From contig JBODTK010000131.1 in NCBI GenBank assembly GCA_050613775.1, positions 434,001 to 481,610 of the forward strand: a stretch of 47,610 bases of DNA, given 5' to 3'. The notes beneath the pieces were generated by a model. The model was not told the origin of the DNA, ran no database searches, and saw nothing but the letters and a program-made list of their open reading frames with translations. Source of the stretch: Neocallimastix sp. 'constans'. Lineage: Eukaryota. Of the stretch, positions 12,896 to 43,555 are shown piece by piece. A program made the translations under genes and the position numbers. The stretch's first letter is position 1, and every line of letters starts with the position of its first letter.

Positions 12896-12926
<31 letters not shown>

Positions 12927-13003: not shown

Positions 13004-13051
<48 letters not shown>

Positions 13052-13060
13052 TTTTCGCCT

Positions 13061-14760: not shown

Positions 14761-14779
14761 GTCAACCCCGAGTCTACCA
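14761..14779 (-). promoter_or_regulatory. Primer binding site of C1 element (tRNA unassigned)
   Basis: Minus-strand TGGTAGACTCGGGGTTGAC, 2 nt after LTR end ..TTTTACA. Confidence 0.65.
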
Positions 14780-15959: not shown

Positions 15960-16020
15960 AGTCCTCCATGCTTAAAATGATACTTCGTCTCTTGAAGTAT
16001 TAAAATTTTCTTCTCTAATA

Positions 16021-18586: not shown

Positions 18587-18618
<32 letters not shown>

Positions 18619-20807: not shown

Positions 20808-20823
20808 AGAGGATTCTCCACCA
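20808..20823 (-). promoter_or_regulatory. B primer binding site, tRNA-Ala-like
   Basis: Minus-strand TGGTGGAGAATCCTCT, 2 nt from the 5' LTR. Confidence 0.85.
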
Positions 20824-20825
20824 GT

Positions 20826-21440
20826 TGTTATAGTTTGCTTATTATCTTAATTTAGAATTTAATTTCTAAAAGTGATAATAAGTATAACAAAATTAAATGT
20901 TTTATAATCAATAAATTAAAATTTTATTAAAACACAAAATATCTTAAACTTATAAAAAAAAAAAAGCAAATTTCTTTTAAGTTAAAAGATAATAAAATTT
21001 TAAATTAATAATTTTTGAGAAATTAATTATTTTTTTTTTATTAATTCTGTTTCTTTAAATTTGAGATTATTTATACAAGTTTATATATTTTTCTTTTAAA
21101 TTAAAGATTTTAAAATAAAACTATCTAATTATTATTTTTAAACAATTATCATTATTTTTAAACTAAAGTTTACATTAAGATTTTTATAATATATCATTTT
21201 TAATTTTTATTATAAAAATTACATTGTTCTTTAAAATAAAATATTTAATATTTAATAATTTTAATTATTTTAACAATTTAATTTATTTATATTATTTATT
21301 TAAAATATTTACTTTTATTATTATTAATTAATTTATAGTTATTGTTTAGATGGTAATATGATTTATTTTATTTTGTTTAATAATTTTATTCATTTTCAAT
21401 AATATAATGTTTTATTGATTTATAATTTAATCCTTTATCA
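20826..21440 (-). repeat. Element B 5' LTR
   Basis: 615 bp copy of 15347-15959. Confidence 0.93.
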
Positions 21441-21441
21441 A

Positions 21442-21993
21442 TGTAGAAGGTACGTTTATTATTAACTAAAATAACGAATAATAATTAAATCTAAAGGCTA
21501 AGATAACATACCTCTCTATCCGAGTTGTTAATAATAAACACTAAATTAATTAATTTATAACTATTATTTCCTATTACACTAGAATATAGCGCAGCACTAT
21601 ATAACTCTATTTGTTATCAGTTGCTGGGCTTACACTGAGTAATATATTTTATTTAATAATTATGTTTTATTTATTAATATTAATATTTTTATCAACAATT
21701 TACGTTAATAGTAACGCTAGTGCGTTACAGTTACAAGTTCAATTGTTATTTATACATGTCAATAATATTATGATTGGTAAATAATTTAATTTAACTTAGT
21801 TTACTAATCACTAAATAAAATGTATTTATCTAAGTATTTAACTATATAATTAATTATAAAATAATAAAATTTAATGTACGAAATTAATAAAAGATTTTAT
21901 TTGATTAGCCAAAATTGCTAGCTGTTTAGAGATACGTTACGTAACCAAAGAACTATCATTGGATAGGCTTGGAGTTACCATGTATCTGTTACA
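21442..21993 (-). repeat. Family C solo LTR (C2)
   Basis: Homologous to C1/C3. Followed by TGGTA, which matches the tRNA-Val upstream flank 10152-10156. Confidence 0.85.
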
Positions 21994-23205
21994 TGGTATG
22001 TTATGATACGATATATTAATAAATAGTTAAAATTAGTAAAATTATTGATAGTAATGTTGAAATTATAACTGAATTGAAATCTCAATTTCAGTTATTCACA
22101 TTTCAATATACATTTAATTAATAATTAATATAAATTCTTATTTAATATTTAAAGAATTATCTTAGGCCTAATAATTCTGAAAATATTAATAAATAAGATT
22201 TATATTAATAATTTCAATTATTTACATATGACGTCACATGTATTTATTTATATTATGTTTATATATATGTTTATATCATATATATTAATTACTATTTTTA
22301 ATTATTCAAATTAATTATACAAATTAAATTTATTTAATTATATTAAATATTTTAAACATATCGATATTGTTATTATTTTAATATTTTATTAATATTCATT
22401 TTATTATATTATTATTATCCTATAATTAAATACTATTATTATGTAACTTACAAAGTATAAAAGAAAGATGTAAAAATCTATCTTTTATGTTCTTTGTAAG
22501 GTTATTGTATTTACAATAATTATATACTAATAATTCAATAAATAAATATTTTCATAAATCCTTCAAGGAAATTATTATTTAAAATATTCTTAGATATTAA
22601 GTGTTTAAATAACTTAACTATTTAAATTATATTATTTTAATTATATTATTATTAATTAATTATTGTTGGATTATTAATATATAATTCAACATATTAACCT
22701 AGTAACGTTATTAATCATAAAACTATTTTATATCTTAATTTTAACAAGTAAAAATAATATAATTTTTAAAGTTAAATAGTTATTTTATGTTTAGTATAAT
22801 ATTAAAAGAATATAAATAAACAGTTAGTTAGTTAGTTAATTTAAGTAAGAGATATGTATAAAATATTCTAGAAATAATTATATAATAATATTGAATTAGA
22901 GGAGTAATTAATATTCTTATATAGATTATAATAGAATAATAATTGCATAATTGGTTGTACTTAAATTAAATAAAGATAAATAATAAAGAAAGATTGACAT
23001 ATTTAAATTATTGTGAGAATTATTATTATTGAAGTATAATTATTCTTATAGAATTTATTAAGTGTTTACGCATAAGATTACACCCTGATCCCTATACAAG
23101 TTAAAAATCTTGTATCAAAATTGGTGAAGAATCCGGGCGTTGCAATATTGGAAATTAATATGAAAATAATAATAATAATTAATAATTTTTAAAAATAAAT
23201 TTATA

Positions 23206-23236
<31 letters not shown>

Positions 23237-23592
23237 TTAATTCTTATTATGTGTAATAAAATAAATAGTAATATTTGATATATTATTATAAAAGGCATAT
23301 TAATATAAAATTATATTTTAATAGTATTTTTAATATAATAAAAAAAAATAGTATAATTGATTAAACGAATTAATAAGAGAATATAAATCTTTGAGATAAT
23401 TATCAATTATTATTAGTTTATAGGAGGGAGATAAATAATAATATTGATGAATTATGATAAGATTGTATATTAATTATATAATTGTATTAATCAGTTTCTA
23501 TTATCTTTATTATAAAAAAAAATTTATTAACTATATTTTATTAATTAAATGCGCCTTTAGTAAATAAATAAGAAAGTAAATACTAAGCCAAA

Positions 23593-24006
23593 ATGAATTC
23601 TAAATCAAATATTTTAGAAGATATTATTGGATATAAAAAAATTAACGGAATAATGAATAATATTATTAAAGGAATTGATGACATTTCAAGAGAAATAATA
23701 ATGAAAAACGCGTTCTTGGAATATAATAATATTTATAAAATTTCAACTAAAAAAATAAATTTTAAACTTGAGGAGAAATTAAAAATTGTTGAAGTAAGAG
23801 AAATAAAATTGGAAAAGAAACCAATTAAAAATATTAGTAAAAAAGTAAGAAAAGAAAAAAGAAAAGTAAAAAGGGAAAATGATAAATGCATAAATATCAT
23901 TATTAAAATATTAATTATTAAAATTAGTAATAACAGGAAAGACACGAAAACAGTTGAACGTAATTACAAAAACAAAAAAAAAAAATTTGCAATTCAAAAT
24001 TTATAA
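23593..24006 (+). pseudogene. Remnant of the C-terminal tail of an A-type Gag
   Basis: NNRKDTKTVERNYKNKKKK vs A NNRKDTKCIIRNYKYKRKRK; KLEKKPIK vs KLLESKPID. Confidence 0.65.
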
Positions 24007-24105
24007 TTTCAAAATTTTACATTTTAAAATTTAACATTTCAAAATTTTACATTTTAAAATTTAACATTTCAAAATTTTACATTTTAAAATTTAACATTTC
24101 AAAAT
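24006..24105 (+). repeat. 30-bp tandem repeat x3.3
   Basis: ATTTCAAAATTTTACATTTTAAAATTTAAC repeated perfectly three times plus a partial unit. Confidence 0.9.
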
Positions 24106-24724
24106 CAAAATTTCAAAATTTCGAAATTTCAAAATTTCAAAAATTCATGTTAATAAATAAATGAATAAAAATAAATAATTAAATAAAAATAAATAATTAA
24201 AATGCTTTTTTCCAGAGACTTCAGGGGACGAAGTCTAATTTCAGCAGGGAGGTCTTGATACGGGATGAATAAATAAATATAAAAATTAATAAATTTAGAA
24301 AAATAATAAAATAAAATTTAATTAAAGTTAAAATAAAAATTATATAGTTTAAAATAATAATAAACAATAAAAAAAATTAAAAAATAAATAAATTAAAATA
24401 AGAATTATTAAGAAAAAAAAATATTTTAGAGATAGAGAAAATAAATATAAATAAAAGGTCTTAGAGAGAGGCCTTAATTGAGATTTTTAGTTTGTAATAA
24501 TTAGTAAAATAAAATAATAAAAGTAATGTTAAAAATGTAATTAATGTAAAATTTAAATAATTATAAATAAAGTATTAAATATAAAATAATAAAATATTTA
24601 AGTTTTATTTAATATAATTATTGTGTTAAAATTATTAATTGTTTTATTAGAATATATTAATTTTCCTCAAATAAAATATTGCAAGTCCCATAAAAGTATA
24701 CGATAATAAAAATATCGTATCAGT

Positions 24725-25523
24725 TGATTTATACCTGATATTCTTAATCTACAAAAATTAAATTTTGTAGAAGTGAATAAGAGGATAAATACTGAATAAA
24801 ATAGATTTAAGAAATTTAAAAAAAATAAATATGTTTTATTATTAAACACAAAAATGTTTTATTAAAAAATTTATTTTTATTTTAATATTAATCTTTATTT
24901 ATTTAATAATTAATTTTGTTTAAATTAATAAAATAATCGTTAAAACTAATAAAATAATAAAAATGAAATATTTATTATTTATACTAATTTATTTTAAATT
25001 TTAATAATAAAATTGATTATTAATAACTAATAAAATATCTATAATAATTTATTAAATAATTAATAATAAAGAATAATTCATAAGAAATATTTACATGTTT
25101 TTATATTTTTCTTTGATTTTAAACTATTTACATTAAAAATAATAAAATTAATAAAAGAGAAATAAAGAATAATTTATTATTAAATTAAACAATATTTACA
25201 ATTAAAATATTAATAAAGATGAGTTTTAAAATGTTATTTTAATTACAATTTGTATATAAAAGTTGAGTTATAAAATAAATAAAATAATCATTATTTTAAA
25301 TAAAAGTAACTTAAAAATTATTTAACTATTTAATTTTAATTTTGCGATGTTTATAAGTTTGTTTATTTGTTATTTATAATTTATTAAATATGTTTATTAT
25401 TTTGTTTATTTGTAGTTTTAGAAAAATATTATTTATTAATTTATTTTAGTTTTTAATTAAAATTATTAATGATTAATTAATTTATTATTATTTTATTTTA
25501 ATTATTTTTATTTAATTAATTTT
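24725..25523 (-). repeat. Truncated, diverged family E LTR (E')
   Basis: Colinear with 37628-~38430 with scattered substitutions; breaks off and joins Copia integrase sequence. Confidence 0.85.
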
Positions 25524-27930: not shown

Positions 27931-30483
27931 TGTCGAACATAGTATCTACCAATCATATTTTACATACAAACAAAATAAGATAAGAAAATTACAAATAGTT
28001 CATAAAAATGTAGTTAATCTTGTTTTTATATAATAAATAAAAGTGCTATATTAATATTGCATACTTTATAAGTGTACTTCTATAATTTTAGTGTTTAAAA
28101 TATTTTAATTATAAAATATAATATTTAGCCATATTAGATTCCTATATTTTATTTATATTAAATATTTATATTATTATCTTATTTTATATTATCAATATCA
28201 AACTTATATTAATACTATTACATATTCATATTAATAATTAATATTTTAATAATTAATTATTTTATATAAATACATGATTAAATCTTTTGATTAATCCTTT
28301 GTAGGATTATTGTAATTTAAATTATAGTAATAATTATATAAAATAATAATGTAATAAAATATTATTAAGATTAAATAAAATTTATATTTTAAATAAAAAC
28401 TTAATTATAAAATTTACTAATAACAATATGTTTTAAATAAGAGTAAAATTAAATTATTAATTAATTACTATAATTTGGCATCTTGACCCAATCGTTAAGA
28501 CCAAATTATCACAAAACTTTGACATATTAATATTAATAGAGATAATTTCTATATTTTTGTAGAAATTATTACAAAAAAATGGTACAAGACTTTTCATTTA
28601 TTTATTTTCAATAATAATATATTCTAATTAATTCTAATTAAACTTATTTATTTATTCCTGAACATTATCTAAACTAATTAAACTCAACATTAATATTCTC
28701 ACTAATGTTTTTAAATATAAACTAAGCTCTCTTTTATTTTATTTTAAACCCCTTAACTAACTTAATTATTATTTAAACTTAAAACTATTATACTAACAAC
28801 ACAGCTTAACACTAAATTAAAACACCCTTAATCAATTTATTTTACCTTATTTTATTCTAAAATTTAATTTATAAAATTTGAGAGAGAGTTTTTAATATTT
28901 TTGATTTTACAAGTTATTTATAGAATTTAATGAAGCTTTTTAATTGGTTCAAATAATTTTTTAATTAATTAAAATAATGTATAAAAAATAATAAAATAAT
29001 ATATAAAAATAATAAAAATTAAAATAAAAATAAAAGTAGAAGTAAAAATTCAAATAAAAATATAAAATAAAAATAAAGATATAAAATAAAAATAATATAA
29101 TAAAAAAAATAAAAACAAATATAAAATAATAAATTTAATAATATAAGCAATATTAGATTGTGTAAAATATTTAATAATTTGAATACGTATTTAAATGTAA
29201 TGTAATGTAAATTATTGTGGATAAAAATGTTTTCCAAATTTTTAATATAAATTTAAATGTATTCCAAATTATTAATTTAAATAATTTTCTCAAAAATTTA
29301 TGACTAAATTATTTGGAGAATTTACGTAACAATTACTCAGTTTGAATCACGAAACTTCATAAATTAAAAAATAATTAGTCATTAATTAGTTAAATTAAAA
29401 TAATTAAAGGAATATTGCCTTTTCCGTTTGTTTACAAAAACTTGCCGTTTTGTTTACTTGTCTTTTAAATTATAGAAATTCTAAAAATAAAAATAGCAAG
29501 TTGTGGTTTAGTAAATTGGTTTTCACAACTTGGCAAAATTTAAATTAAATATATGGATAGAATATATTTAATCATATAATTAATGAATTAAACTCTAAAT
29601 TTTCTTCATAGAAAATTTTAGAAAAATTAGATAGTTTTAAATAGGATTTATATTAAAATAATACATAACATTTCATGTAATTTATTATATAATGTAATTG
29701 ATAATATAAAATAATATGTTTATGTAATTTATTAAAATTTATTTTGATTTAAAACTTTATTTTGAAAAAGTATAAAAAGAGTTAATTTTTCAACTATTGA
29801 ACGATAGTTGGAAAATCGTATAGTAATAGGAAAATTTAAGTTTTATTATTAGTTTCGTAACTATTATTAGAATAGTTATTTTCTATTAAAACAATTTTAT
29901 TATAGTTTGTAAAACCTTAACTGCTAGTGGGAACTCCGGAAAGGACCCTGCGTTACCCAGTTAAGTGGTTGTTGAAAATTAGTTAATAAATAAGATAAAT
30001 AAATAAAAGAAATTAAAAAAAAATAATTAATTAATTAATAGAGGTTTAGGATATAGTGTTATTAGTGTAGTAAAGTTAGTATAGAATAGCCACAAACCTA
30101 GACTTGATAAGTATTTTATTTTACAGATTGTTCCGTATCGAAATGTAAAGAATTAATTAAAAATATTTAATTATATTAATATTTAATTCTTTCTACAATT
30201 AATAATAAAAAATATTATTAATTGAGATAAAATTAAAAAATTTAATATAAAAATTGAAAACGAAAATTTAAAAACTTAGAGTTTATTATAAGATTATAAT
30301 AAACAACACTAAAAATAGGTTAATAGAATTTTAGAAATTATTTTATTATAAAAAATTTTTATTAAAAGTAATTTTAAGATATTTGTGTTAATTATTATAA
30401 TTTCTTATAATAATAACTCTTGATTATTTTTAGAAGAATCAAGAGTCCTATTTATATTAATTTGATTTCTAATCTTGGAAAAT

Positions 30484-30600
30484 TATCTCTATCTAGAAAA
30501 AGATTAGAAGAAAAAACTAGATAGATCTCGATTGGTGTTTAATTACATCAATCTTTAGTTAATAAGAAAACCCGAATAAGGGAGAAAACTTATTAACTAA
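30484..30600 (-). repeat. Possible third, inverted and diverged copy of the 9.2/45.1 kb dispersed repeat
   Basis: Shares AGAAAAAGATTAGA..GAAAAAACT.AGA..TCGAT..AAAAC.CG..GAAAACTTA.TTAACT with the reverse complement of 45101-45273. Confidence 0.4.
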
Positions 30601-30954
30601 TTATATATTAATTTTATTAATATTTAATCACAAGTATAATTAAATAATTAATTCTTTTAATTATCTTAATTAAAAGTCCAAGAAATAATATAATTTAATT
30701 TTTCTTAATTAAATAGAATTTATCATTATTTTAATACAATAATTCATTATTATAATTTAATATATTAATTATTGATAATTTAATTTAATGTAAATAAATT
30801 TTAAAACAATAACATTAATTAATAATTACTATGTGACATAATTAATAAAATTATTCATAAAATTTTATAAAATAATAAACTTTAAATATTAATTTTTTAA
30901 TAAAGAATAATAATTATTTTGAAAAATAATTATAATTCTTTACACGAAAATTCA

Positions 30955-31511
30955 TGTAAAAGGTACGTTTATTATTAACTAAAATAACGAATAATAACTA
31001 AATCTAAATGCCAAGATAACTTAACACCTCTCTATACGAGTTGTTAATAATAAACACTATATTAATTAATTCAATAACTATTACTTCTTAATTACACTAG
31101 AATATAGCGCAGCACTTTATAACTCTATTTGTTATCAGTTGCTGGGCTTACACTGCTTAATATATTTTATTTAATAATTATATTTTATTTATTAATATTA
31201 ATATTTATAATAACAATTTACGTTAATAGTAACGCTAGTGCGTTACAGTTACAAGTTCAATTATTATTTATACATGTCAATAATATTATGATTGGTAAAT
31301 AATTTAATTTAACTTAGTTTACTAATCACTAAATAAATTATATTTAAAGAAGTATTTAACTATATAATTAATTATAAAATAATAAAATTTAATGTACGAA
31401 AATAACAAAAGATTTTATTTGATTAGCCGAAATTGCTAGCTGTTTAGAGATACGTTACGTAACCAAAGAACCATCATTAGATAGGTTTGAAGTTACCATG
31501 TATCTTTTACA
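30955..31511 (-). repeat. Family C solo LTR (C3)
   Basis: Homologous to C1/C2. Left flank ATTCA vs reconstructed right flank ATTCT. Confidence 0.85.
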
Positions 31512-32114
31512 TGGTACAGGACTTTTGAAATTGATGGATGTATAATAATATATTGGTAAATAGATAGTGGACGTATAAAAATTACGAAAAACTTATACAA
31601 TATTTATTTATTTATTTATTGATTATTTATTAATTTATTTATTTAAAAATTTATTTAACTATATATTATTCATCCATTTATTTATTTGTTCATTTATTTA
31701 TTTATTCCTCCATTACATAAAAAAAAAGAAAAGAGAGAGATTTAAAATAATATTATTACAAAATATTTTATAAATTTTGGTAATACATTGATTAGTTAAA
31801 AATAATTTTGTGTAACAATAAAATAATAATAAAATTTTAGATATGAATATTAATAATAAAAATAATAAAAAAATTTATAATATAAAATAAAATTTATCAA
31901 ATGTATAATAAAAATATAATAAGAATATAATAAAATATTTATTTTATAGCAAAATATTAATAATTAATAATATATATATTTATATAATAATAAAGGAAAT
32001 ATTGATAAAGTTAATAAAGATAATAATTAATTAATAAAATAGATTTAAAACATATTTATATGGAGAAATATTAAAATTATTATAATTTAAGGTATTTGGG
32101 TAAATACCGTATCA
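31512..32114 (-). repeat. Element D 3' LTR
   Basis: Copy of 37020-37622; in sense orientation TGATACGG..GTACCA. Confidence 0.95.
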
Positions 32115-32152
32115 TGATGCCCCCGTTAAGTTTAGACTTCGTCCCTTGAAGT

Positions 32153-35100
32153 CTATACTTCACATAGTCTGTATGGTACAATGTTCTTTAAGTGAACATT
32201 TCTCTCAGCGATTTCATTAGTTACAGGATCGCAAAGTGTGACCGTGTTAAATTTCTTCTTAACTATTTTCATAGGGCCAAGGAAGAATGGGTCTAATTTT
32301 CTTCGGTTAATAAGTTTGACAAGGACAAGATCACCAGGGTTATATTCAGCCTTCATTCTCTTCATTTGTTTTCGCCTGTCTTCCCATAACTTGTTAGCAG
32401 TATTAATGTTGTTAATGGCTTCTTTAATCCAGGCATAATGTTTAGTAAATCTTCTTATTAAAAATTCTTCTTCACTTTCGTATTCTTCTTTCTTGTCTAA
32501 GTTCAGTGTTAATTCAAAGGGTTGTAAATCGCGACGTCCATATAACAACTCAAAACTGGAAAACTTAGTAGTTTCATTCTTACAGGTGCGAATAGCCCAT
32601 AAAGCGCTTGGTAGCATCTCATCCCAAATGGTAGTGTTGCGATTACAAAGAATTCTCAAGTACTTGCCAATTTCTTTATTTCTATTTTCGACTTCGCCGT
32701 TGGATTCTGGATGGTATGTTGTAATATAGTGTACGTAAACTCCATACAAGTCGAGAAAAGCTTTCGTTTTGTCCGAACAGAATTGGGGTCCATTGTCCGT
32801 TATTAAAATCTCAGGCGTTCCATGTCGAGCAAAGACTTTGGATAGAAATTGGATAACGTCATCTGATTCAATGTTCTTAGTGGGTTCAGCTTCAACCCAC
32901 TTAGTCAGGTAATCTACTAAAACTATAATGTATTGATTACCTTTCTGAGTAACTGGTAGAGGTCCTACAATGTCTAGACCTACCTTGGTAAATGGAAGAC
33001 CGGGTTTCGTGGCTGTATCTTCAGGTTGATAGTTAAATGTTTGTGGCTTAAAGAGTTGACAAGTTTTACAGGTCCTGACCATGTATTTAACATCTTGTAT
33101 CATGTTGGTCCAATAGTAATCTCTTTTCAAGCGGTTGTATGTCTTGAAAGTACCTTCGTGACCGATACCATGGGCCTTAAGAATAAGTTTGACTTTTTCC
33201 TCTGGGTTATCTATAACTTTTCTTAGCATTCCATTGTCTTTATAAAATTTTTCTCCATTCATTAAAGTAAACTTGTCTTTTAATAGATTTAATAAGTTGT
33301 TTTCATCTGTTTCACTATTTACACTCACGGTTGTAGTTGCTAATATATCGCTTTTGATGGATGGCATCCTCGAGAGAGCGTCTGCGATAACATTCTTTTT
33401 ACCAGGTTCATATTGAACACGAACCTTCAACATTGATAAGAGTAATACCCAGCGCGTTTGCCTTGCGTTGTTGGGTTCTTTGGAGGTGAATAAACTAACT
33501 AGTGGTTTGTGGTCTGTATAGAGGATAGTGGAACAGTTATTGCTAGAGATGTAAGGTTTGAATTTCTTTACGCTATAGAATGCAGCTGTTCCTTCTAAGT
33601 CGGTGATAGAGTAATTCTTTTCGGAAGATTTTAATGAACGGCTAATGAAGTGGATGGGTTTTTCCTTACCATCTTCCTCTTTTTGTAATAGAACGCCACC
33701 GATACCATCATAAGAGGCGTCTGTACGGATGATGAAAGGCTTTTCGAAGTCAGGCATAATTAATATAGGTGCCTTCACAAGTCTATCTTTAAGTTCTTGG
33801 AAGCTGTTTTCTTGTTCTGTATTCCATTCGAAATCAGTACCCTTTTTCAGCAGTTTATATAGTGGTCTAGCCATCTTCGCAAAGTTGAATATAAATTTTC
33901 TGTAGTAGCCTACAGCACCTAAAAAGGACCGTAGTTGAGTTATATTCTTGGGAGGCAACCAGTTGTGAATAATTTCAGTTTTTCCTGGGATTGGAGCAAC
34001 TCCTTCAACTGATAAAATATGTCCAAGAAGTTCTACTTTTTTCTTGAAAAAGTGACATTTTTCTAAGTTTATCTTCAATCCGTTGTTCTTGATTATTGTA
34101 AAGACTTTTCTTAAATCTTGGATGTGTTCTTCAATTGATGGTGAGAATATCACCAAGTCATCTATATAAACGAACATGCATACTCCAATTAGCGGGAAGA
34201 AAATTCTGTTCATTTCCCTCTGAAAAGTACCAGGAGCATTGCATAGTCCGAACGGCATCACCCGGAATTGGTAGTTCCCAAACATAGTGGTAAAAGTGGT
34301 CTTGGGAATGTCTTCTTTATTCATTGGAATTTGGTGAAAGCCGGAGAATAAATCTATAGTAGTAAAGACCATAACCTTCCTTCCAATAGAAAATAAAATA
34401 CTATCGATAATTGGTAACGCGTAGGAATCTTTGATGGTAACATTGTTCAGCTTACGGTAGTCCACGCACATCCTCCACTTTTTATTTTTCTTGAGGACGA
34501 GTACTACTGGAGACGACCAAGGGGAGCTGGATGGCTCTATCAACTTGTTTTTTATAAGTTTTGTTATTTCTTGCTTTAGAGCTTGAATTTGAACTTTGGA
34601 CAACCGGTATCCTTTCTGCTTGATCGGCTTTGCATTTTCTATTAATTGAATGGTATGTGGAAGCAGTTTCGTTGGCTGGAGTTCATCAATTTTGATTGCT
34701 AAGATGATGATGAATTCATGAAATAGTGAGTTAACTTTTCTTCTGTATTTTCTCGGTAATTCATCCAATACTTTGTTCAACAACTCTTGTTTCTTTAAGG
34801 GTCCGTCTTTAACTTCTTCAATTTGATCTGTTTCATCATGGTAGTTCTCATCTTTAACCTTATTTACAAGACAGAAGGCATAAGAGCTTGATGCATCTTT
34901 ATTGTTGGTAAGATTGTGATTCTCATTATCGTCACTCTCCTTCGATTCTTCCTCATCAGTCCCTAAAGGAGACACACGATCCCATGATTCTTCACTGAGC
35001 ATCTTGCATAAGTGATTGTCGATAGGATGTACGAATAATTTATTGTCTTTTAATGTATTGAACCCTATAAGTATATCGAAGATATTTTTATCGTTTTCAA

Positions 35101-36004
35101 CAACTCTAAATACATCTTTAATTGTGGTATCCCCAATTTTGACATCCAATAGATAGAGTTCTGAATCCAATTTCTTCTCAGAGAAAATTTGTACAATATT
35201 ATTATTTGTGTACCCCATTGGTACCAAGTTTTGTTTTTCTTTTATCCTTGTTAAGTAATTCTTTGTCACCAAGTTTAAGCTAGCACAGGTATCCAAGAAA
35301 GCTATACCTTCAATCCCATAAACATAACATTTTATACTGGCGATATCACTTCTTGAAATAGTGGATAGAACTATTTCGTTTAGAGATTGTCCTTGAGTAT
35401 TGCTGTCCTTTAGCTTAAGTAGTTTAACTAGTTCCGATCTAAGCTTAGGACTTATATCTAATAGCTGTGTGATGGAGATATTAGCTAGTTTGTTGTTTAA
35501 GTCATCAGAGATATCATAACTGTTCTTTCCTTCCATCAAGGCTATATGTTTTTCGGTAGATGTCCTTTTAGATTTGACTTCTTCAGCTTTATCACTAGGA
35601 AGTTTTCCTTTTGTTACTTCTTTAGATTGATCATCTCTTGATGGATGAGTACTTGTTTCAGTTTCTTCTATTATTTCTTTTTCTTTATCTAATTTGGTTT
35701 TTCTTTTCACGGACTTGATGGATGGCTGAGCTATCACAGAAAGGTCAATTTCTTCAAGCTTTTCTGTAGTAGTAGGTGTAGACACTGGTGATTCAAACTC
35801 CATAGTAGTATCCTGAGTATTTGTTGCAGCTTTTCCTTTCCTAGATTTTTCTTTTGAAGAGTATGGGGTTTCTGCCATACTATTATTCTTTTTCTTTCTT
35901 CTTACTACCGCTGCTAATATGTCATTATTTGGAACTAGTGGTAAATGGTTCTTTTCGTTGGTTTGATTAAAGGAAGTTTCCCTTCTTCCTTTTACCAGTT
36001 TAAA
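32153..36004 (-). CDS. pol: D Pol (protease-RT-RNase H-integrase), entered by -1 frameshift
   Basis: 1241-aa ORF from 35878, with the frame open upstream to the TTTAAAC slippery site. FLDTCAS, CVDYRKLN, YIDD, TDASYDG, HGIGHEG..CKTC, GLDIVGP, TDNG, SNGEVE, LDPFFLGPMKI. Confidence 0.95.
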   Translation of the reverse strand, partial: FKLVKGRRETSFNQTNEKNHLPLVPNNDILAAVVRRKKKNNSMAETPYSSKEKSRKGKAATNTQDTTMEFESPVSTPTTTEKLEEIDLSVIAQPSIKSVKRKTKLDKEKEIIEETETSTHPSRDDQSKEVTKGKLPSDKAEEVKSKRTSTEKHIALMEGKNSYDISDDLNNKLANISITQLLDISPKLRSELVKLLKLKDSNTQGQSLNEIVLSTISRSDIASIKCYVYGIEGIAFLDTCASLNLVTKNYLTRIKEKQNLVPMGYTNNNIVQIFSEKKLDSELYLLDVKIGDTTIKDVFRVVENDKNIFDILIGFNTLKDNKLFVHPIDNHLCKMLSEESWDRVSPLGTDEEESKESDDNENHNLTNNKDASSSYAFCLVNKVKDENYHDETDQIEEVKDGPLKKQELLNKVLDELPRKYRRKVNSLFHEFIIILAIKIDELQPTKLLPHTIQLIENAKPIKQKGYRLSKVQIQALKQEITKLIKNKLIEPSSSPWSSPVVLVLKKNKKWRMCVDYRKLNNVTIKDSYALPIIDSILFSIGRKVMVFTTIDLFSGFHQIPMNKEDIPKTTFTTMFGNYQFRVMPFGLCNAPGTFQREMNRIFFPLIGVCMFVYIDDLVIFSPSIEEHIQDLRKVFTIIKNNGLKINLEKCHFFKKKVELLGHILSVEGVAPIPGKTEIIHNWLPPKNITQLRSFLGAVGYYRKFIFNFAKMARPLYKLLKKGTDFEWNTEQENSFQELKDRLVKAPILIMPDFEKPFIIRTDASYDGIGGVLLQKEEDGKEKPIHFISRSLKSSEKNYSITDLEGTAAFYSVKKFKPYISSNNCSTILYTDHKPLVSLFTSKEPNNARQTRWVLLLSMLKVRVQYEPGKKNVIADALSRMPSIKSDILATTTVSVNSETDENNLLNLLKDKFTLMNGEKFYKDNGMLRKVIDNPEEKVKLILKAHGIGHEGTFKTYNRLKRDYYWTNMIQDVKYMVRTCKTCQLFKPQTFNYQPEDTATKPGLPFTKVGLDIVGPLPVTQKGNQYIIVLVDYLTKWVEAEPTKNIESDDVIQFLSKVFARHGTPEILITDNGPQFCSDKTKAFLDLYGVYVHYITTYHPESNGEVENRNKEIGKYLRILCNRNTTIWDEMLPSALWAIRTCKNETTKFSSFELLYGRRDLQPFELTLNLDKKEEYESEEEFLIRRFTKHYAWIKEAINNINTANKLWEDRRKQMKRMKAEYNPGDLVLVKLINRRKLDPFFLGPMKIVKKKFNTVTLCDPVTNEIAERNVHLKNIVPYRLCEV

Positions 36005-36864
36005 GACTTATTTTCTTTTTGAAGTTGGCCTTTTTCTTCCATCTCTGCTAATTCCCTGAAAGAGTAAGGACATTGGTTTAAGTAGTGTCCCACTTGACCA
36101 CATTTATAGCATTTTCTATTATTTTGTTGATGTGTGTTTGAATTATCTTGGCGTCTTCTAGTCTGTTCTTGATTTGACTTCAGTTTATTTTCTTTTACAT
36201 ACCTATAATCGCTTCGGTCGTTATCCCTTGTGTTGTATTTTCGGTTACCAAAGCCCTTGAATGGATGACCTCCGTAGTTGACTTTATAATAATAAGGTTG
36301 GTTGGATTGAAATGTTGCTAAAACAGTTTCAGGCTTACGTAGGAAGTTTTCTTCAGCCCTTTCGGCTAGTTCGGCTTCTTCGAAGGCATCCTCCAGATCA
36401 TAACACCTTTGGGTGATTACTTGAGACCTTGCATAAGGTCTACTAGCAATGGATTCAATGTAATCGTCTACCGTAATGAAAGATTGGTATAGTTTGGAAA
36501 GACTATTATAAAGCTTTTTGTACCTCCAGTTAAAGTTTTGAATACTTTCACCCTTTCTGATTCTAAGTTTCTGGAGTCTCTTGCATTTTTCCTGGGGAGT
36601 AACTTCAAGTGCATCTTCTATAGCCTTTTTCATCTGGTCGATGGATGGATACTTCTTTCCCCCTTCTTCGTCGGTAGTTACTAAGTCTTGTAGTATACCT
36701 CTTAGTTTGCCTTCCACACATTCCATAGCCCAGGAATGTATGTTCATAGGTTCAGTGATGTTTGCTAGTCTCATGATCCTAGCAAATTCATCACCCCAAG
36801 AATCCACATCTCTTGCTGTTTCGTTTAGACGAGGTAGAATCTCTTCGAGTTCCCTGATCTTCAT
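35992..36864 (-). CDS. gag: D Gag, 290 aa, one CCHC zinc knuckle
   Basis: CYKCGQVGHYLNQC; lies between PBS and pol. Confidence 0.93.
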   Translation of the reverse strand: MKIRELEEILPRLNETARDVDSWGDEFARIMRLANITEPMNIHSWAMECVEGKLRGILQDLVTTDEEGGKKYPSIDQMKKAIEDALEVTPQEKCKRLQKLRIRKGESIQNFNWRYKKLYNSLSKLYQSFITVDDYIESIASRPYARSQVITQRCYDLEDAFEEAELAERAEENFLRKPETVLATFQSNQPYYYKVNYGGHPFKGFGNRKYNTRDNDRSDYRYVKENKLKSNQEQTRRRQDNSNTHQQNNRKCYKCGQVGHYLNQCPYSFRELAEMEEKGQLQKENKSLNW

Positions 36865-36995
36865 TTCTTTAGTTTTTTTTTTTTCTGTTTTATTTTATTT
36901 GCTTTATTATTATTATTATTATTTCGTTTATAATATTTTATTTAATCTTCTTTCTTTTTTACTATCTATTAATGTTTCATATTATTATACTTTCG

Positions 36996-37012
36996 TCCTG
37001 CATAGCTCGCCA
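36996..37012 (-). promoter_or_regulatory. D primer binding site, tRNA-Arg-like
   Basis: TGGCGAGCTATGCAGGA is the complement of ..TCCTGCATAGCTCGCCA, which resembles eukaryotic tRNA-Arg(ACG) 3' ends; 7 nt from the LTR. Confidence 0.75.
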
Positions 37013-37019
37013 GAAATTA

Positions 37020-37622
37020 TGGTACAGGACTTTTGAAATTGATGGATGTATAATAATATATTGGTAAATAGATAGTGGACGTATAAAAATTACGAAAAAC
37101 TTATACAATATTTATTTATTTATTTATTGATTATTTATTAATTTATTTATTTAAAAATTTATTTAACTATATATTATTCATCCATTTATTTATTTGTTCA
37201 TTTATTTATTTATTCCTCCATTACATAAAAAAAAAGAAAAGAGAGAGATTTAAAATAATATTATTACAAAATATTTTATAAATTTTGGTAATACATTGAT
37301 TAGTTAAAAATAATTTTGTGTAACAATAAAATAATAATAAAATTTTAGATATGAATATTAATAATAAAAATAATAAAAAAATTTATAATATAAAATAAAA
37401 TTTATCAAATGTATAATAAAAATATAATAAGAATATAATAAAATATTTATTTTATAGCAAAATATTAATAATTAATAATATATATATTTATATAATAATA
37501 AAGGAAATATTGATAAAGTTAATAAAGATAATAATTAATTAATAAAATAGATTTAAAACATATTTATATGGAGAAATATTAAAATTATTATAATTTAAGG
37601 TATTTGGGTAAATACCGTATCA
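37020..37622 (-). repeat. Element D 5' LTR
   Basis: 603-bp copy of 31512-32114. Confidence 0.95.
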
Positions 37623-37627
37623 TACAA

Positions 37628-38553
37628 TGATTTATACCTAATATTCTTAATCTACAAAAATTAAATTTTGCAGAAGTGAATAAAAGGATAAATACTGAAT
37701 AAAAATTGATTTAAGGAATTTAAAAAAATAAATATGTTTTATTATTAAACACAAAAATGTTTTATTAAAAAAAAATTTATTTTTATTTTAATATTAATCT
37801 TTATTTATTTAATAATTAATTTTGTTTAAATTAATAATATAATAATTGTTAAAACTAATAAAATAATAAAATGAAATATTTATTATTTAAACTAATTTAT
37901 TTTAAATTTTAATAATAAAATTGATTATTAATAACTAATAAAATATTTATAATAATTTATTAACTAATTAATAATAAAGAATAATTTATAAGAAATATTT
38001 ACATGTTTTTATATTTTTCTTTGATTTTAAACTATTTACATTAAAAATAATAAAATTAATAAAAGAGAAATAAAGAATAATTTATTATTAAATTAAACAA
38101 TATTTACAATTAAAATGTTTATAAAGATGAGTTTTAAAATGTTATTTTAATTACAATTTGTTTATAAAAGTTGAGTTATAAAATAAATAAAATAATCATT
38201 ATTTTAAATAAAAGTAACTTAAAAAATTATTTAACTATTTAATTTTAATTTTGCGTTGTTTATAAGTTTGTTTATTTGTTGTTTATAATTTATTAAATAT
38301 GTTTATTATTTTGTTTATTTGTTGTTTTAGAAAAATATTATTTATTAATTTATTTTAGTTTTTAATTAAAATTATTAATGATTAATTAATTTATTATTAT
38401 TTTATTTTAATTATCTTTATTTAATTAATTTTTCTTAAATATGGATTTAATTTTTTTTTGAATGGATTAATTTTTGGGTTAAGCTAGAAAACTTTAATAA
38501 CATGAATTTGTTTTTTATTATTTATTTTAATTTAATAATTTTGTTATTTATCA
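37628..38553 (-). repeat. Element E 3' LTR
   Basis: Copy of 42449-43374. Confidence 0.95.
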
Positions 38554-38681
38554 ATTTCTCGGCCCTTAAGAGTCAACTTCGTCCCTTGAAGTTGTATCAT
38601 TTTCTTGTAGTACATAAGGAAAAACATTTTTTATATGAACATTTCTTTCAAGGAGTTTTCCTGTTTGTGGATCTTCAAGAA

Positions 38682-40076
38682 CTAAAGTGTTGTTTCAGAG
38701 TCTTTTGATGATAGTCTTGAAAGTGCATCATCGAAAAGATTTCTTTTTCTTTTTTCATAAACTAAATTGGTTTTGTACTTATTAAATTCTTCTATCCAAC
38801 GGGCATGTCTATTGTTGTTAGGAATATTTTTCTTGAGCAAACCTAAAAGTGGCTTATAATCAGTTATAAATTTTATCGGTTTATTATTGTTGATTGACAA
38901 TGTCCTACTTAAATAACAAATTGGATGTTCTAATTTGTCTTCCTCCTTTTGCAAAAGAGTACTTCCGATATCTTTATTCTTTTCTATTATTATTGCATTA
39001 CACATAGGCGTCTTTAAAGAAGTATGGGTATTATATATTTCAGTTATTCTTTTAATTCCCTTTTTTGTTTTTTGATATAAGCAATCATCATCTGGATCAA
39101 TGTAGAGTCTGTACTTCTTTTGTATACCTCTTCCTAATATAATATTAAAGAATGGATTTGTATAATCTATTATATAAAATTTTTCATTCACAGTTAAGTT
39201 ATTATTTATAGTTAATCTTAAATTTATATAAGAATTAGTATGGAGTATTGTACCATCGGCAATTGTAATAGTTTCAGAAAAGTCGCAATGATTAATAGTT
39301 ACATTTTCTAATTCTTTTAGAGAATTTTTTGTTATAATATTAATATTTGCACCAGTATCAAAAAGTATCTTAACCATTTTATTTCCAATTTTTCCGCACA
39401 AAATAGGAATATTTAAATTTTGAATGGAATAAAGTATTTTCTCAACTCGTGGTTTACAACCTTGTTCTAGATCTTTTCTTATAGATGGACTAGCTGATAA
39501 TAATTGTGTTAGGCTTATTTTAGGATATAAATTATTGGCTTCTTCTAGAATATTGAATTTATTTTCAGGTTTTAACATTTGTATTTCGGTCATGTTTCGC
39601 TTACCTTTTGTTTTAACTTTTTCTGGTATAGTATTTGAATTATTATCTTGATAATTATTTTCATTAGGAGTATTGGGTTGGGGTTTGTCAAAATTGGTTG
39701 CACGAACACTTTCACTATTATTATTAGATTCTTCATGCGTAATATTATTATTAGATAAATTCATGTCTTCTATATCATTTGTAATTTCTCTTCTTCTTTT
39801 ATCTCTAATGGCTTTCTTCTGTTGTTTAACAGCTTTTATATTTGGTTGATTTAGAATGGAAGGTTTTACTATAGATTTATTACTTGGTGATATTTTATTT
39901 TTATCCAATGCATTCTTACTTAGTGATTTTCTCTTTTGAGCTGCATTAATCATATAATTATTGTTTCCTTCATATTCTATAGTATATTCATGATTATAGT
40001 TGTTTGTTGCAATTTTATTTATCTCGGGAGATTGCGTACTCCCGATAACTAATTTAAATGGTTTAATTCTGGACAT
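38682..40076 (-). CDS. pol: E truncated Pol: spacer + aspartic protease fused in frame to RNase H fragments
   Basis: LFDTGANIN..IILGR protease, then IGSTLLQKEE..HPICYLSRTL..ITDYKPL..DALSRL; no RT motifs. Confidence 0.88.
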   Translation of the reverse strand: MSRIKPFKLVIGSTQSPEINKIATNNYNHEYTIEYEGNNNYMINAAQKRKSLSKNALDKNKISPSNKSIVKPSILNQPNIKAVKQQKKAIRDKRRREITNDIEDMNLSNNNITHEESNNNSESVRATNFDKPQPNTPNENNYQDNNSNTIPEKVKTKGKRNMTEIQMLKPENKFNILEEANNLYPKISLTQLLSASPSIRKDLEQGCKPRVEKILYSIQNLNIPILCGKIGNKMVKILFDTGANINIITKNSLKELENVTINHCDFSETITIADGTILHTNSYINLRLTINNNLTVNEKFYIIDYTNPFFNIILGRGIQKKYRLYIDPDDDCLYQKTKKGIKRITEIYNTHTSLKTPMCNAIIIEKNKDIGSTLLQKEEDKLEHPICYLSRTLSINNNKPIKFITDYKPLLGLLKKNIPNNNRHARWIEEFNKYKTNLVYEKRKRNLFDDALSRLSSKDSETTL

Positions 40077-40977
40077 TCTTCAACAATGTGACCAATACGC
40101 TGACAATTTATGCATAGGTTGATTTTTAAATCGGATAATTTTTTTGTTATATCATCTAGTTCTTTATCAGTGAATTGAGAACCTTTTAAAGTTGCTCTTC
40201 TCTGTTCGACTCCTTTATTGAATTCTACAGGGTTGTAAAAATTTTTATTTGTAGTAAAATTGTTGTTATAGTTATTGTTTCTAAATTTATTATTATAACT
40301 GAAATTTTCATTAGTCCTAATATTAGAGACAAAGGGGATTTTATTGTAATAATTAGTGTTAAAAGATCTAAAATTAGTATTTTTATTATTGTTATTATTA
40401 GTGTTATTTAGATTCTTCTTTACATTTGAGAATTGAGTTTTAGATTTTGGTTTATTATCTTCAAGAAGTTTAAGCATTTTTTCTTTCTTTGAAGTTATTT
40501 CCATTGCATCACTTAATTTAGTAGGTTCTGATTCTAACAAATACTCATACATTTTAGACCAGTTTCTAAATGCATTTATGTAGTATGGAGTACTAATATA
40601 ATCCTTTCCATCTAATTGTAATTGATTTAAGAGTTGTAAGAATTTTGTATCGAAGTCGGAAACTTTTTCACCTTTCTTAATGGTTAATGTTGATATTTCC
40701 AAAAATTTTACATTCTTTGGCGTACAAGGTTTAAATCTTTTCTTTAAGTTTTCTAAAATTATTTCATAAGAGTCAGCTTGTGTTTTATTTAAAGAATTTA
40801 TAACAATAGTTCTTGCTTTATCTGTAGTTACAGCAATTAAATATTCATTCTTTTCTTCGTTTTCAATTTTATATTTTCGACACCAATTTTCAAAGGCGAA
40901 TTTCCATTCTTCATATTGGACTTTTTCTTCACCTAATATTGGTAATCTACTAAAAGTAATAGCTTTGGTAGTTGTTT

Positions 40978-40981
<4 letters not shown>
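40049..40981 (-). CDS. gag: E Gag, 310 aa, CCHC knuckle
   Basis: CINCQRIGHIVEEC; homologous to B Gag. Confidence 0.92.
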
Positions 40982-41038
<57 letters not shown>

Positions 41039-41454
41039 TTAATTATTATTATTAGTAGCAGTAGTAATATTTCTAAAATTATTAATTCTTATTATCTTTA
41101 GTTTATCTTGAATGATTTCCCGTCCTTATAGTACGGTTGTAGAATAATACGACGTTTGGTCCCACTGATTATAGGAGTTTTACACTACGTCTACACCTAA
41201 CGTAGATCTCTACTTATAATCAGCGCCTACTCCCCCGTATTGATTCTTATTCTACAGTCCGTTAGCTCTTACTGCAATAATACACTAGTATTAAGGGTAA
41301 GAGATTCCTACTATAAGTATCAATCAGTCAAGAGAACAGAAGCAGTTCCTCCAACTAAAAAAATACTTTTCTTTAATTGTTTTCCTTAATTTAAATTTTA
41401 TGGTTTTCTAATTTTATTTTATTTTTTTTTTTTTTTTTTTATTATATATTTATT

Positions 41455-41494
<40 letters not shown>

Positions 41495-41947
41495 TTAAAA
41501 AAATATATTTTATACAATAATATCCTAGAAAATATTAAAAAAAATAAAAGGTTAAGTAGTATAATGGTATTTAAAAATTTTTATTATTTAAATATTTAAA
41601 GAAGAATAAAAAGTTAAATTATAAATATTTATTATTAATAATTCTCAAAAGAATATTAATTACGATTTTCCAATAATATAAGTAATAAGTAGGTAGTATA
41701 CTCGTAGCCAGCTTGCCCACTTGCTCAGGCGTCATGTACTACTCGTACCAGTGATTCTCCTACACGTTTATACGTTTGTAGAATAGTTCAGAGCTTCCCA
41801 GCGCGCCGACTGTGAAAGAATAAACTAATCACGGAAACCACTTATTATTTTACTTATATTATTGCTTCTAAAGCAACAATATTCTTTTTTGAAAAATAAA
41901 TAATAATTTTATAATAGAACTTCTTAAAGTTCTTCTGTTTTATTTTA

Positions 41948-42014
<67 letters not shown>

Positions 42015-42431
42015 TAAAATTTTACTAATAAATTTTATTATTATTATTATTTATTACTTATAATATATACTTTATTATTTAATTAAATTGAATAATATGA
42101 ATACTATTTAATTATCTTTAAAAAAAATTTTTTTTTTTTTTTTATTTAATTATTAAAGATAAATTTAATTTAATTTGCAGTTTATTTAACGTATATTATT
42201 TGTTGATTAATTTATATTAATAACTTTAATTTATAATAATTTATTGCTATAATATTTTATTTGCATATTATTAAGATAAATTTATTTGAGTCTATTACTA
42301 TGAATAATTTAGAGTTATTCTAAAACTAGACTAATTTATTGTAATAATTATTGTTTAATATTACCATTGAATAACTAGGCTTATTCTAATATTAAACTAA
42401 AAAAAAAATTTTACTTACCACCGGGGCAACA

Positions 42432-42447
42432 AGAGGATTCTCCACCA
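42432..42447 (-). promoter_or_regulatory. E primer binding site, tRNA-Ala-like
   Basis: Minus-strand TGGTGGAGAATCCTCT, 1 nt from the 5' LTR; identical to the B PBS. Confidence 0.85.
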
Positions 42448-42448
42448 T

Positions 42449-43374
42449 TGATTTATACCTAATATTCTTAATCTACAAAAATTAAATTTTGCAGAAGTGA
42501 ATAAAAGGATAAATACTGAATAAAAATTGATTTAAGGAATTTAAAAAAATAAATATGTTTTATTATTAAACACAAAAATGTTTTATTAAAAAAAAATTTA
42601 TTTTTATTTTAATATTAATCTTTATTTATTTAATAATTAATTTTGTTTAAATTAATAATATAATAATTGTTAAAACTAATAAAATAATAAAATGAAATAT
42701 TTATTATTTAAACTAATTTATTTTAAATTTTAATAATAAAATTGATTATTAATAACTAATAAAATATTTATAATAATTTATTAACTAATTAATAATAAAG
42801 AATAATTTATAAGAAATATTTACATGTTTTTATATTTTTCTTTGATTTTAAACTATTTACATTAAAAATAATAAAATTAATAAAAGAGAAATAAAGAATA
42901 ATTTATTATTAAATTAAACAATATTTACAATTAAAATGTTTATAAAGATGAGTTTTAAAATGTTATTTTAATTACAATTTGTTTATAAAAGTTGAGTTAT
43001 AAAATAAATAAAATAATCATTATTTTAAATAAAAGTAACTTAAAAAATTATTTAACTATTTAATTTTAATTTTGCGTTGTTTATAAGTTTGTTTATTTGT
43101 TGTTTATAATTTATTAAATATGTTTATTATTTTGTTTATTTGTTGTTTTAGAAAAATATTATTTATTAATTTATTTTAGTTTTTAATTAAAATTATTAAT
43201 GATTAATTAATTTATTATTATTTTATTTTAATTATCTTTATTTAATTAATTTTTCTTAAATATGGATTTAATTTTTTTTTGAATGGATTAATTTTTGGGT
43301 TAAGCTAGAAAACTTTAATAACATGAATTTGTTTTTTATTATTTATTTTAATTTAATAATTTTGTTATTTATCA
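42449..43374 (-). repeat. Element E 5' LTR
   Basis: 926 bp; ends 14 bp from tRNA-Ser. Confidence 0.95.
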
Positions 43375-43388
43375 ACAATTCTGAAGTA

Positions 43389-43470
43389 GTCAGTTTGTCC
43401 GAGTGGTTAAGGAGTCAGACTTGAAATCTGATGGGCTCTGCCCGCGCAGGTTCAAACCCTGCAGCTGACG
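43389..43470 (+). tRNA. tRNA-Ser(TGA)
   Basis: GTCAGTT..TCAGA CT-TGA-AA TCTGA, long variable arm GGGCTCTGCCC, GCAGG TTCAAAC CCTGC AGCTGAC G; 82 nt, G73. Confidence 0.95.
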
Positions 43471-43483: not shown

Positions 43484-43555
43484 GGGGTGTTAGCTCGGCG
43501 GTAGAGCAATTGACTGCAGATCAATAGGTCTTCGGTTCAAATCCGGAACGCCCCT
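43484..43555 (+). tRNA. tRNA-Cys(GCA)
   Basis: GGGGTGT..ATTGA CT-GCA-GA TCAAT..TTCGG TTCAAAT CCGGA ACGCCCC T; 72 nt, U73. Confidence 0.95.

What the first reader, a model, noticed from the sequence alone, without database searches (positions are those of the whole stretch)
30950..43389. Second stack C3-D-E upstream of tRNA-Ser with overlapping TSDs
D's TSD TACA duplicates the last 4 bp of solo LTR C3. E's TSD ACAA overlaps D's right TSD, and only TACAA separates D and E. Removing E leaves D 15 bp from tRNA-Ser. Removing D leaves C3 11 bp away with flanks ATTCA/ATTCT. The target sequence here differs from that at tRNA-Val, so site choice appears positional rather than sequence-specific.
Basis: partly seen in the sequence, partly recalled or inferred. 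Interest (0 to 1): 0.8.

Follow-up and report, generated by a model that had tools for sequence, protein, structure and literature searches.

The report
Retrotransposon stacks at gut-fungus tRNA genes
In DNA that likely comes from an anaerobic gut fungus, a dozen LTR retrotransposon copies of several families are piled up in front of two tRNA genes; taken apart in their inferred order, each sat 11-17 bases before the gene, so they likely aim at tRNA genes as yeast Ty3 and amoeba DGLT-A do.

Summary
Observation confirmed base for base: C3 (30955-31511), D (31512-37622, TSD TACA) and E (37628-43374, TSD ACAA) peel back to 14, 15 and 11 bp before tRNA-Ser. The stack is deeper than reported. With the tRNA-Val stack there are 12 insertions at 11-17 bp. 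Successive distances return to about 14-15 bp instead of drifting. Outside the window, an X-like LTR end lies 15 bp before a different tRNA-Ser gene in run X3, and the D/C junction recurs in contig L003. D is an intact Ty3/gypsy element (gag, -1 frame pol, no chromodomain) of a gut-fungal clade; E is an RT-deleted relative of B. Best reading: positional targeting of the Pol III start region, like Ty3 and DGLT-A, in a lineage where eight paper searches found no report. No genome was held, so genome-wide targeting is untested, and the D/E order is inferred. The scan noted a similar case in another probable gut fungus (e1-8067551).

The parts
43389..43470 (+). tRNA-Ser(TGA) gene, the anchor of the stack
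43484..43555 (+). tRNA-Cys(GCA) gene, 13 bp behind tRNA-Ser; a Ser-Cys pair is also seen at another copy in run X3
43375..43388 (+). 14-bp spacer: E right TSD ACAA, then TTCTGAAGTA
37628..43374 (-). Element E: 926-bp identical LTRs (37628-38553, 42449-43374), PBS, gag (40049-41038), protease plus RNase H remnant (38682-40079), 30 aa of integrase end; RT and most of integrase deleted; relative of B (gag 51-54%, protease region 62%); 14 bp from tRNA-Ser
37623..37627 (+). TACAA: overlapped right TSD of D (TACA) and left TSD of E (ACAA)
31512..37622 (-). Element D: intact Ty3/gypsy element, 603-bp identical LTRs (31512-32114, 37020-37622), PBS, PPT, gag with CCHC knuckle (35992-36894), pol PR-RT-RH-IN in the -1 frame (32153-36007) with TTTAAAC at the overlap, no chromodomain; 15 bp from tRNA-Ser after E is removed
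30955..31511 (.). Solo LTR C3 (family with C1, C2; 94-95% alike), 5-bp TSD ATTCA/ATTCT split by D and E; 11 bp
30144..30944 (.). Solo LTR Z (not in the finding), 12-bp terminal inverted match, 5-bp TSD CGAAA overlapping W's last two bases; 16 bp
28580..30140 (.). W (not in the finding): 1561-bp segment with D-like LTR termini, TSD AAAA; likely a solo LTR of a sister family; 14 bp
10072..10144 (-). tRNA-Val(TAC) gene, anchor of the opposite stack
10160..13760 (+). Element A: gag-only, 660-bp identical LTRs, TSD ACTG; 15 bp from tRNA-Val
13765..14779 (.). Solo LTR X, TSD ACTG/ATTG overlapping C1's first two bases; 15 bp
14782..15339 (.). Solo LTR C1, 5-bp TSD GGTAT; 13 bp
15347..21440 (-). Element B: broken Ty3/gypsy element of the same clade as D (RT about 60% identical; RNase H region not found), LTRs differ by one substitution and 3 gap columns, TSD ATGT overlapping C2's first three bases; 15 bp
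21442..21993 (.). Solo LTR C2, 5-bp TSD TGGTA; 12 bp
22004..24722 (+). Y: A-related remnant whose two LTR-like ends are unlike each other (likely chimeric), TSD GTTA/GTTG; 17 bp
24725..25523 (-). F: E-family LTR (97%), cut off at a joint with a copia integrase; 15 bp from tRNA-Val after peeling; far end and TSD missing

Best explanation
Two tRNA genes, in what is likely an anaerobic gut fungus, each have a stack of LTR retrotransposons directly upstream, and the stacks likely arose because several families of a chromodomain-less Ty3/gypsy clade integrate at a fixed distance before tRNA genes, each new copy pushing the older ones away. Shown: the boundaries, the duplications, the distances after peeling (4-bp-TSD elements 14, 15, 14, 15, 15, 15 and 17, plus F at 15 with its TSD missing; C family 11, 12, 13; Z 16), both orientations, and D's intact coding set. 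Inferred: the order within the stacks where duplications do not overlap an older end; that the integration complex is tethered to the RNA polymerase III factors (TFIIIB/TFIIIC) on the tRNA gene and cuts at the start site, as measured for Ty3; that the family-specific offsets reflect different integrase geometry; that solo LTRs arose by LTR-LTR recombination; and that E, A and Y moved in trans. Because D's integrase lacks the Ty3 C-terminal module, the contact more likely runs through the integrase N-terminal extension or RNase H, as reported for DGLT-A. That step is a guess by analogy.
For:: 12 of 12 elements between the two tRNA genes peel to 11-17 bp (mean 14.3, SD 1.7); next distance against previous distance has slope -0.53 (SE 0.30, n=10 pairs; p=0.0005 against 1; p=0.12 against 0), and a random walk with the same step sizes stays in 11-17 in 0.35% of runs. 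Self-comparisons show no stack element inserted inside the body of another in the 33 kb; in run X3 a diverged tRNA-Ser gene (8 differences) has an end matching the reversed start of X at 14 of 15 bases exactly 15 bp upstream (one contig); in L003 (pol 65% identical to the alignment's first sequence) a D-like 3' LTR abuts the first base of a C-like LTR, the same zero-gap geometry as D/C3, with a second C-like start 268 bp further on. D and B fall in one clade with named gut-fungal proteins (100/99), apart from the gypsy element at the left window edge. Published distances agree: DGLT-A 13-33 bp, mean 15; D. purpureum families 13-16 and 10-11; Ty3 about 15 bp (PMC5006619, PMC6101501).
Against: Only two tRNA loci in the window and one outside contig link an LTR to a tRNA; no genome was held, so the share of copies at tRNA genes is unknown. 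None of 8 related contigs (L003-L010) holds a tRNA gene, though by their ends they hold little or no flanking DNA. Two loose ends behind E-family LTRs (X5, X1) run into sequence that is not a tRNA start at 14-15 bp; they look like further LTR starts but were not identified. A decayed integrase of the same clade lies at 8257-8626, about 1.4 kb downstream of tRNA-Val and outside any upstream stack. No exact empty allele was seen. The D/E and Z/C3 orders are not fixed by sequence. The superfamily of C, Z and X is unknown because no internal region was found. The drift test treats inferred order as known.
Confidence: 0.85

Rival explanations
1. The elements target the ends of LTRs already present (self- or sister-targeting), and the tRNA gene only marks where the first one happened to land.
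For: Five TSDs overlap the terminal 2-4 bases of a neighbouring LTR (D/C3, Z/W, X/C1, B/C2, Y/F). The D/C junction recurs in L003 with no tRNA visible. The D/E order is ambiguous.
Against: The distance to the tRNA should then wander, but it returns to 14-15 bp whatever the previous end was. Both stacks end at a tRNA start. In run X3 an X-like end sits 15 bp before another tRNA gene with no other LTR end between.
Confidence: 0.07
2. Integration follows a weak DNA-sequence or shape preference (CA/TG-containing, flexible sites) that happens to be met just upstream of these tRNA genes.
For: 6 of 7 four-base TSDs contain CA or TG. D and the L003 element both abut TGTA/TACA.
Against: The 11 TSDs share no consensus (tRNA sense: ACAA, TACA, ATTCA, CGAAA, AAAA, CAGT, CAGT, ATACC, ACAT, TACCA, TAAC). 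CA/TG steps are everywhere in the 33 kb, yet all insertions hit the same few bases. W, with D-like ends, used AAAA.
Confidence: 0.04
3. Insertions are untargeted and the pile is what survived selection in a gene-poor repeat region, or it is a product of recombination or mis-assembly.
For: The window holds no host protein gene among ORFs of 150 aa or more and carries other elements away from tRNA starts. The F/copia joint at 25523 and chimeric Y show that rearrangements occurred. No contig bridging the stack was seen (one search covered only 173 bases).
Against: Selection cannot explain a 7-bp window when thousands of neutral sites lie inside the elements. Overlapping duplications that peel back consistently are not made by collapse of repeats. 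The junction type recurs in unrelated data.
Confidence: 0.04

Closest known systems
DGLT-A of Dictyostelium discoideum and D. purpureum (Ty3/gypsy)
   Same: Inserts about 15 bp before the mature tRNA (13-33 bp; D. purpureum families 13-16, 15, 10-11, 10-19), in either orientation; many solo LTRs; no chromodomain and a short integrase tail (32 aa; D has about 40 after GPM). Repeated insertion at one tRNA gene is noted in a table footnote (PMC5006619 section 6; PMC5911963 passages).
   Different: DGLT-A has one ORF; D has gag and pol in a -1 frame. The host is a fungus. Stacks here hold 5 and 7 elements of many families over 33 kb. D looks intact, whereas no full-length D. discoideum DGLT-A exists. 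Sequence kinship was not tested.
Ty3/sigma of Saccharomyces cerevisiae
   Same: Closest solved structure to D pol (7Q5B, E 8.8e-105); same domain order; inserts 1-4 bp before the Pol III start, about 15 bp before the mature tRNA.
   Different: Ty3 makes a 5-bp TSD, uses a +1 frameshift and aims with a C-terminal chromodomain (bioRxiv 2021.07.27.453949 passages). D makes a 4-bp TSD, has a -1 frame, and its integrase ends 32 residues after the aligned point where Ty3 has 130 more.
Tj1 of Schizosaccharomyces japonicus; Tca8/beta of Candida albicans; Ylt1, Tyl3, Tyl6 of Yarrowia lipolytica
   Same: Fungal Ty3/gypsy elements upstream of tRNA genes; Tj1 at about -10 to -11 from the mature RNA with a 5-bp TSD, like the C family here (PMC4600332, PMC5911963 passages).
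   Different: All are from ascomycete yeasts. Tj1 inserts in one orientation, while C, E/F and the coding elements here occur in both.

Membership tests
Ty3/gypsy LTR retrotransposon (element D) | pol order PR-RT-RH-IN | tested here: met
   Pfam RVT_1 505-665, RT_RNaseH 753-858, Integrase_H2C2 935-989, rve 1010-1100; protease Pfam in 19 of 25 relatives but not scored in D itself
Ty3/gypsy LTR retrotransposon (element D) | Two LTRs with TG...CA ends, PBS, PPT, TSD | tested here: met
   the tRNA that primes was not identified
tRNA gene-targeted retrotransposon (criterion of PMC5006619) | Several copies at a similar distance from tRNA genes | tested here: met
   C family 11, 12, 13; E/F 14, 15; D/W 15, 14; X 15 and an X-like end at 15 in run X3; three tRNA genes only
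tRNA gene-targeted retrotransposon | Most copies genome-wide lie at Pol III genes | not testable with these tools
   No genome held; the metagenome scan gave only 2 unrelated hits
Ty3 proper | Integrase C-terminal chromodomain that contacts TFIIIB | tested here: not met
   0 of 25 clade members hit a chromo family at E 0.01; all end about 40 aa after the GP motif; Ty3 has about 100 aa more
Ty3 proper | +1 frameshift and 5-bp TSD | tested here: not met
   -1 frame offset in D, E and B; TTTAAAC at the overlap in D and B, not E; 4-bp TSD
DGLT-A | No chromodomain, short integrase extension | tested here: met
   against PMC5006619 section 6
DGLT-A | Single gag-pol ORF | tested here: not met
   Two overlapping ORFs
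DGLT-A | YPYY motif before the zinc finger (PMC2836005) | tested here: inconclusive
   Only a partial aromatic pattern before HHCC by eye in alignment A1
DGLT-A | Groups with DGLT-A in an RT-RH-IN tree | not tested
   No DGLT-A or Ty3 sequence was among the proteins returned; the tree used plant and animal hits as outgroups
DGLT-A / Ty3 | Protein contact with TFIIIC (Tfc4) or TFIIIB | not testable with these tools
   No host Pol III factor sequence in hand

The most novel reading that the evidence does not exclude
A whole gut-fungus-specific clade of chromodomain-less Ty3/gypsy elements, plus 5-bp-TSD families (C, Z) that may be a separate lineage, has evolved base-precise tRNA-gene targeting independently of yeasts and amoebae. 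It did so in a repeat-rich genome where avoiding genes cannot be the reason, families compete for one site with their own offsets, and intact element D is a live, site-specific integrator usable as a safe-harbour vector.
Probability: 0.35. Interest if true: 0.75.

Novelty: new member of a known kind. Interest (0 to 1): 0.58.

Why it matters
Pol III-targeted LTR elements are listed only for ascomycete yeasts and social amoebae (PMC5911963, Table 1 passage) and are explained as an adaptation to compact genomes (PMC5006619). A case in an early-diverging fungus, in a stretch with no host protein gene, tests that explanation; that gut-fungal genomes are large and repeat-rich is recalled, not checked here. 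The stacks give an ordered record of a dozen insertions with family-specific offsets, so one can ask which protein surface sets the distance when the Ty3 chromodomain is absent. D has identical LTRs and open frames, whereas DGLT-A lacks a working copy for assays (PMC6101501 passage). Anaerobic gut fungi had no gene-insertion method as of 2018 (PMC5796279, abstract start only), so a native integrator that spares genes would be useful.

Tried and rejected
No genome was available. A lay of contigs across the whole Ser stack gave no result, so alleles lacking D, E, C3, Z or W could not be seen as joints; only 173 bases at the tRNA end were laid (23 of 55 loose ends shown, no joints). The single metagenome scan, with a C-LTR end motif, gave 2 hits: L001 is bacterial by its ORFs, neither held a tRNA, and the BLAST against the window returned no lines (which then stopped with an error). 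Viral collection: no D relative; a loose LTR-end/tRNA-start pattern gave 120 loci with no match to any window LTR, all treated as chance. The prokaryote collection gave 8 element contigs mis-binned in three MAGs; none holds a tRNA, and the MAGs' tRNAs lie on other contigs than the three element contigs I could place. A search with the protease region returned only 5 clade members. The Atlas gave generic gypsy integrase clusters, not a placement. Considered and not claimed: a sixth element ending in TTACA at 28572, 16 bp from tRNA-Ser after peeling (its match to the copia LTR start is poor); an X-Z kinship (E 1e-5 to 1e-6 in AT-rich DNA). The tree used 30 of 120 RT rows, picked by hand to span the identity range. 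No structure or complex was predicted. Paper searches for a prior report in gut fungi: 0 papers; 0; 0; the library lacks most subscription papers and I read no supplements.
Full report
Setting. The window is very AT-rich and holds three tRNA genes: Val(TAC) on the minus strand at 10072-10144, and Ser(TGA) at 43389-43470 with Cys(GCA) just behind it on the plus strand. Every ORF of 150 aa or more is a retrotransposon part or an antisense frame of one. The closest named relatives of D's pol and integrase are Orpinomyces (JGI Orpsp1_1, 73%) and Neocallimastix proteins, while named plant and animal hits fall to about 35% or less. The host is therefore most likely an anaerobic gut fungus (inference). 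No genome was held.

Checking the observation. All coordinates and duplications in the finding are right. Removing E leaves D 15 bp from tRNA-Ser; removing D leaves C3 11 bp away with ATTCA/ATTCT; E itself is 14 bp away. A single exact 4-bp duplication has about 2% chance in this DNA, and 8 of 11 two-ended elements have an exact one; the other three have one mismatch.

The stack is deeper. Left of C3 lies Z (30144-30944), with a 12-bp terminal inverted match and the exact 5-bp duplication CGAAA; a null scan found that combination at 0 of 256 other CA ends. Left of Z lies W (28580-30140), whose first 15 bases match D's LTR start at 14 positions and whose end differs from the D-type CA by one base that is present in both copies of Z's duplication, so W is older than Z. 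Z and W peel to 16 and 14 bp. Other tRNA-Ser copies in runs X1 and X3 also have an A-run shortly before GAAGTA, though not the same letters.

The opposite stack. Upstream of tRNA-Val, A, X, C1, B, C2, Y and F peel to 15, 15, 13, 15, 12, 17 and 15 bp. The 33 kb between the two divergent tRNA genes is thus two stacks that meet at a copia fragment, where F is cut off at 25523. Distances sort by family: the 4-bp-TSD elements sit at 14-15 (one at 17), the C family with 5-bp TSDs at 11-13, and Z at 16. Both orientations occur: D, E, A and Y point away from their tRNA, B and F point the same way as it, and C faces both ways.

Position or neighbour? Five duplications overlap the end of an older LTR, so the elements might be aiming at LTR ends. 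That would make the distance to the tRNA drift. It does not: next against previous distance has slope -0.53 (SE 0.30; p=0.0005 against 1), and a random walk with the observed steps stays within 11-17 bp in 0.35% of runs. This test assumes the inferred order, which the letters do not fix for D/E or Z/C3. LTR identity fits youth near the tRNA (A, E and D identical; B one substitution plus gaps) but cannot order D and E. The TSDs have no consensus, but 6 of 7 four-base ones contain CA/TG, which is confounded with the previous LTR end.

Evidence from outside the window. In run X3, one contig of a tRNA-Ser gene that differs at 8 places carries an end matching the reversed start of X at 14 of 15 bases, followed by exactly 15 bases before the tRNA (compared). 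In L003, an element contig mis-binned in a bacterial MAG (pol 65% identical, same PBS as D), the 3' LTR abuts the first base of a C-like LTR, and a second C-like start follows. That repeats the D/C3 geometry, but no tRNA is on the contig. Against, or unexplained: two loose ends behind E-family LTRs do not run into a tRNA start, and a decayed integrase of the clade lies at 8257-8626, downstream of tRNA-Val.

What the elements are. D has gag with a CCHC knuckle and an uninterrupted 1284-codon pol frame with RT, RNase H and integrase, in the -1 frame with TTTAAAC at the overlap. Its closest solved structure is Ty3, but its integrase ends 32 residues after the point where Ty3 has 130 more; 0 of 25 clade members hit a chromo family, and all end alike. 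E is a B relative that has lost RT and most of integrase; A carries gag only. D and B fall in one clade with gut-fungal proteins (100/99), apart from the gypsy element at the left edge of the window (30 of 120 rows). C, Z and X have no internal region here, so their superfamily is unknown.

Mechanism. Most likely the integration complex is tethered to Pol III factors bound on the tRNA gene and cuts near the start site, so each new copy lands between the gene and the previous copy (inferred from Ty3: bioRxiv 10.1101/2021.07.27.453949, passages). Without Ty3's chromodomain, a contact through RNase H or the integrase N-terminal extension, as for DGLT-A and Tfc4 (PMC6101501, passages), is the better guess; it is untested.

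Known and new. Targeting at about 15 bp, both orientations, family offsets and repeated insertion at one gene are all described for dictyostelid DGLT-A (PMC5006619, passages and section 6 part 1), and a review table lists yeast and amoeba hosts only (PMC5911963, passages). Tj1 resembles the C family in distance and TSD (PMC4600332, passages). D fails the membership tests for Ty3 proper and the single-ORF test for DGLT-A; kinship with DGLT-A was not tested, and the YPYY motif (PMC2836005, passages) is inconclusive. Eight searches found no report for gut fungi; passages of PMC3248453 and PMC8778642 do not contain the word tRNA. The scan's own unchecked notes hold similar cases in other genomes, seen after I had stated my reading. 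Verdict: a real, unusually deep record of a known kind of targeting in a new lineage; genome-wide proof and the molecular contact remain open.

Noticed in passing
window 8257-8626 (+): Decayed integrase end of the D/B clade (48-64% to D) about 1.4 kb downstream of tRNA-Val, outside any upstream stack; its ends could not be set.
   Followed up: partly
window 9150-9566 and 45036-45580: Two stretches about 75% alike lie 0.5-0.9 kb downstream of tRNA-Val and 1.5-2 kb downstream of tRNA-Cys; possibly an old repeat family.
   Followed up: no
window 22004-24722: Element Y has a PBS after a 1115-bp left end and a PPT before an unlike 466-bp right end; likely a chimera of two A-related elements. The right end is 67% like the LTR in L006.
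   Followed up: partly
window 25523: An E-family LTR is joined directly to the middle of a copia integrase, where the two stacks meet; likely a deletion or rearrangement joint.
   Followed up: no
window 43389-43555: tRNA-Ser and tRNA-Cys stand 13 bp apart in tandem, and the pair recurs at another copy in run X3; they may be co-transcribed, and no element sits between them.
   Followed up: partly
window 13060-13080, 15960-15990, 24215-24235, 32135-32155, 38575-38595: A conserved self-complementary motif just before the polypurine tract is shared by A, B, Y, D and E and by L003, L006 and L009.
   Followed up: partly
L003-L010 (G001-G003): Gut-fungal-type retrotransposon contigs are mis-binned in three prokaryotic MAGs of the genome collection.
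   Followed up: yes
window 28350-28572: A possible further short LTR or copia LTR end (TTACA) would lie 16 bp from tRNA-Ser after full peeling; not distinguishable from chance in AT-rich DNA.
   Followed up: partly
window 470-2734 (-) and 4873-7328 (+): A gypsy element outside the D/B clade and a broken copia element lie away from tRNA starts and could serve as non-targeted controls.
   Followed up: partly
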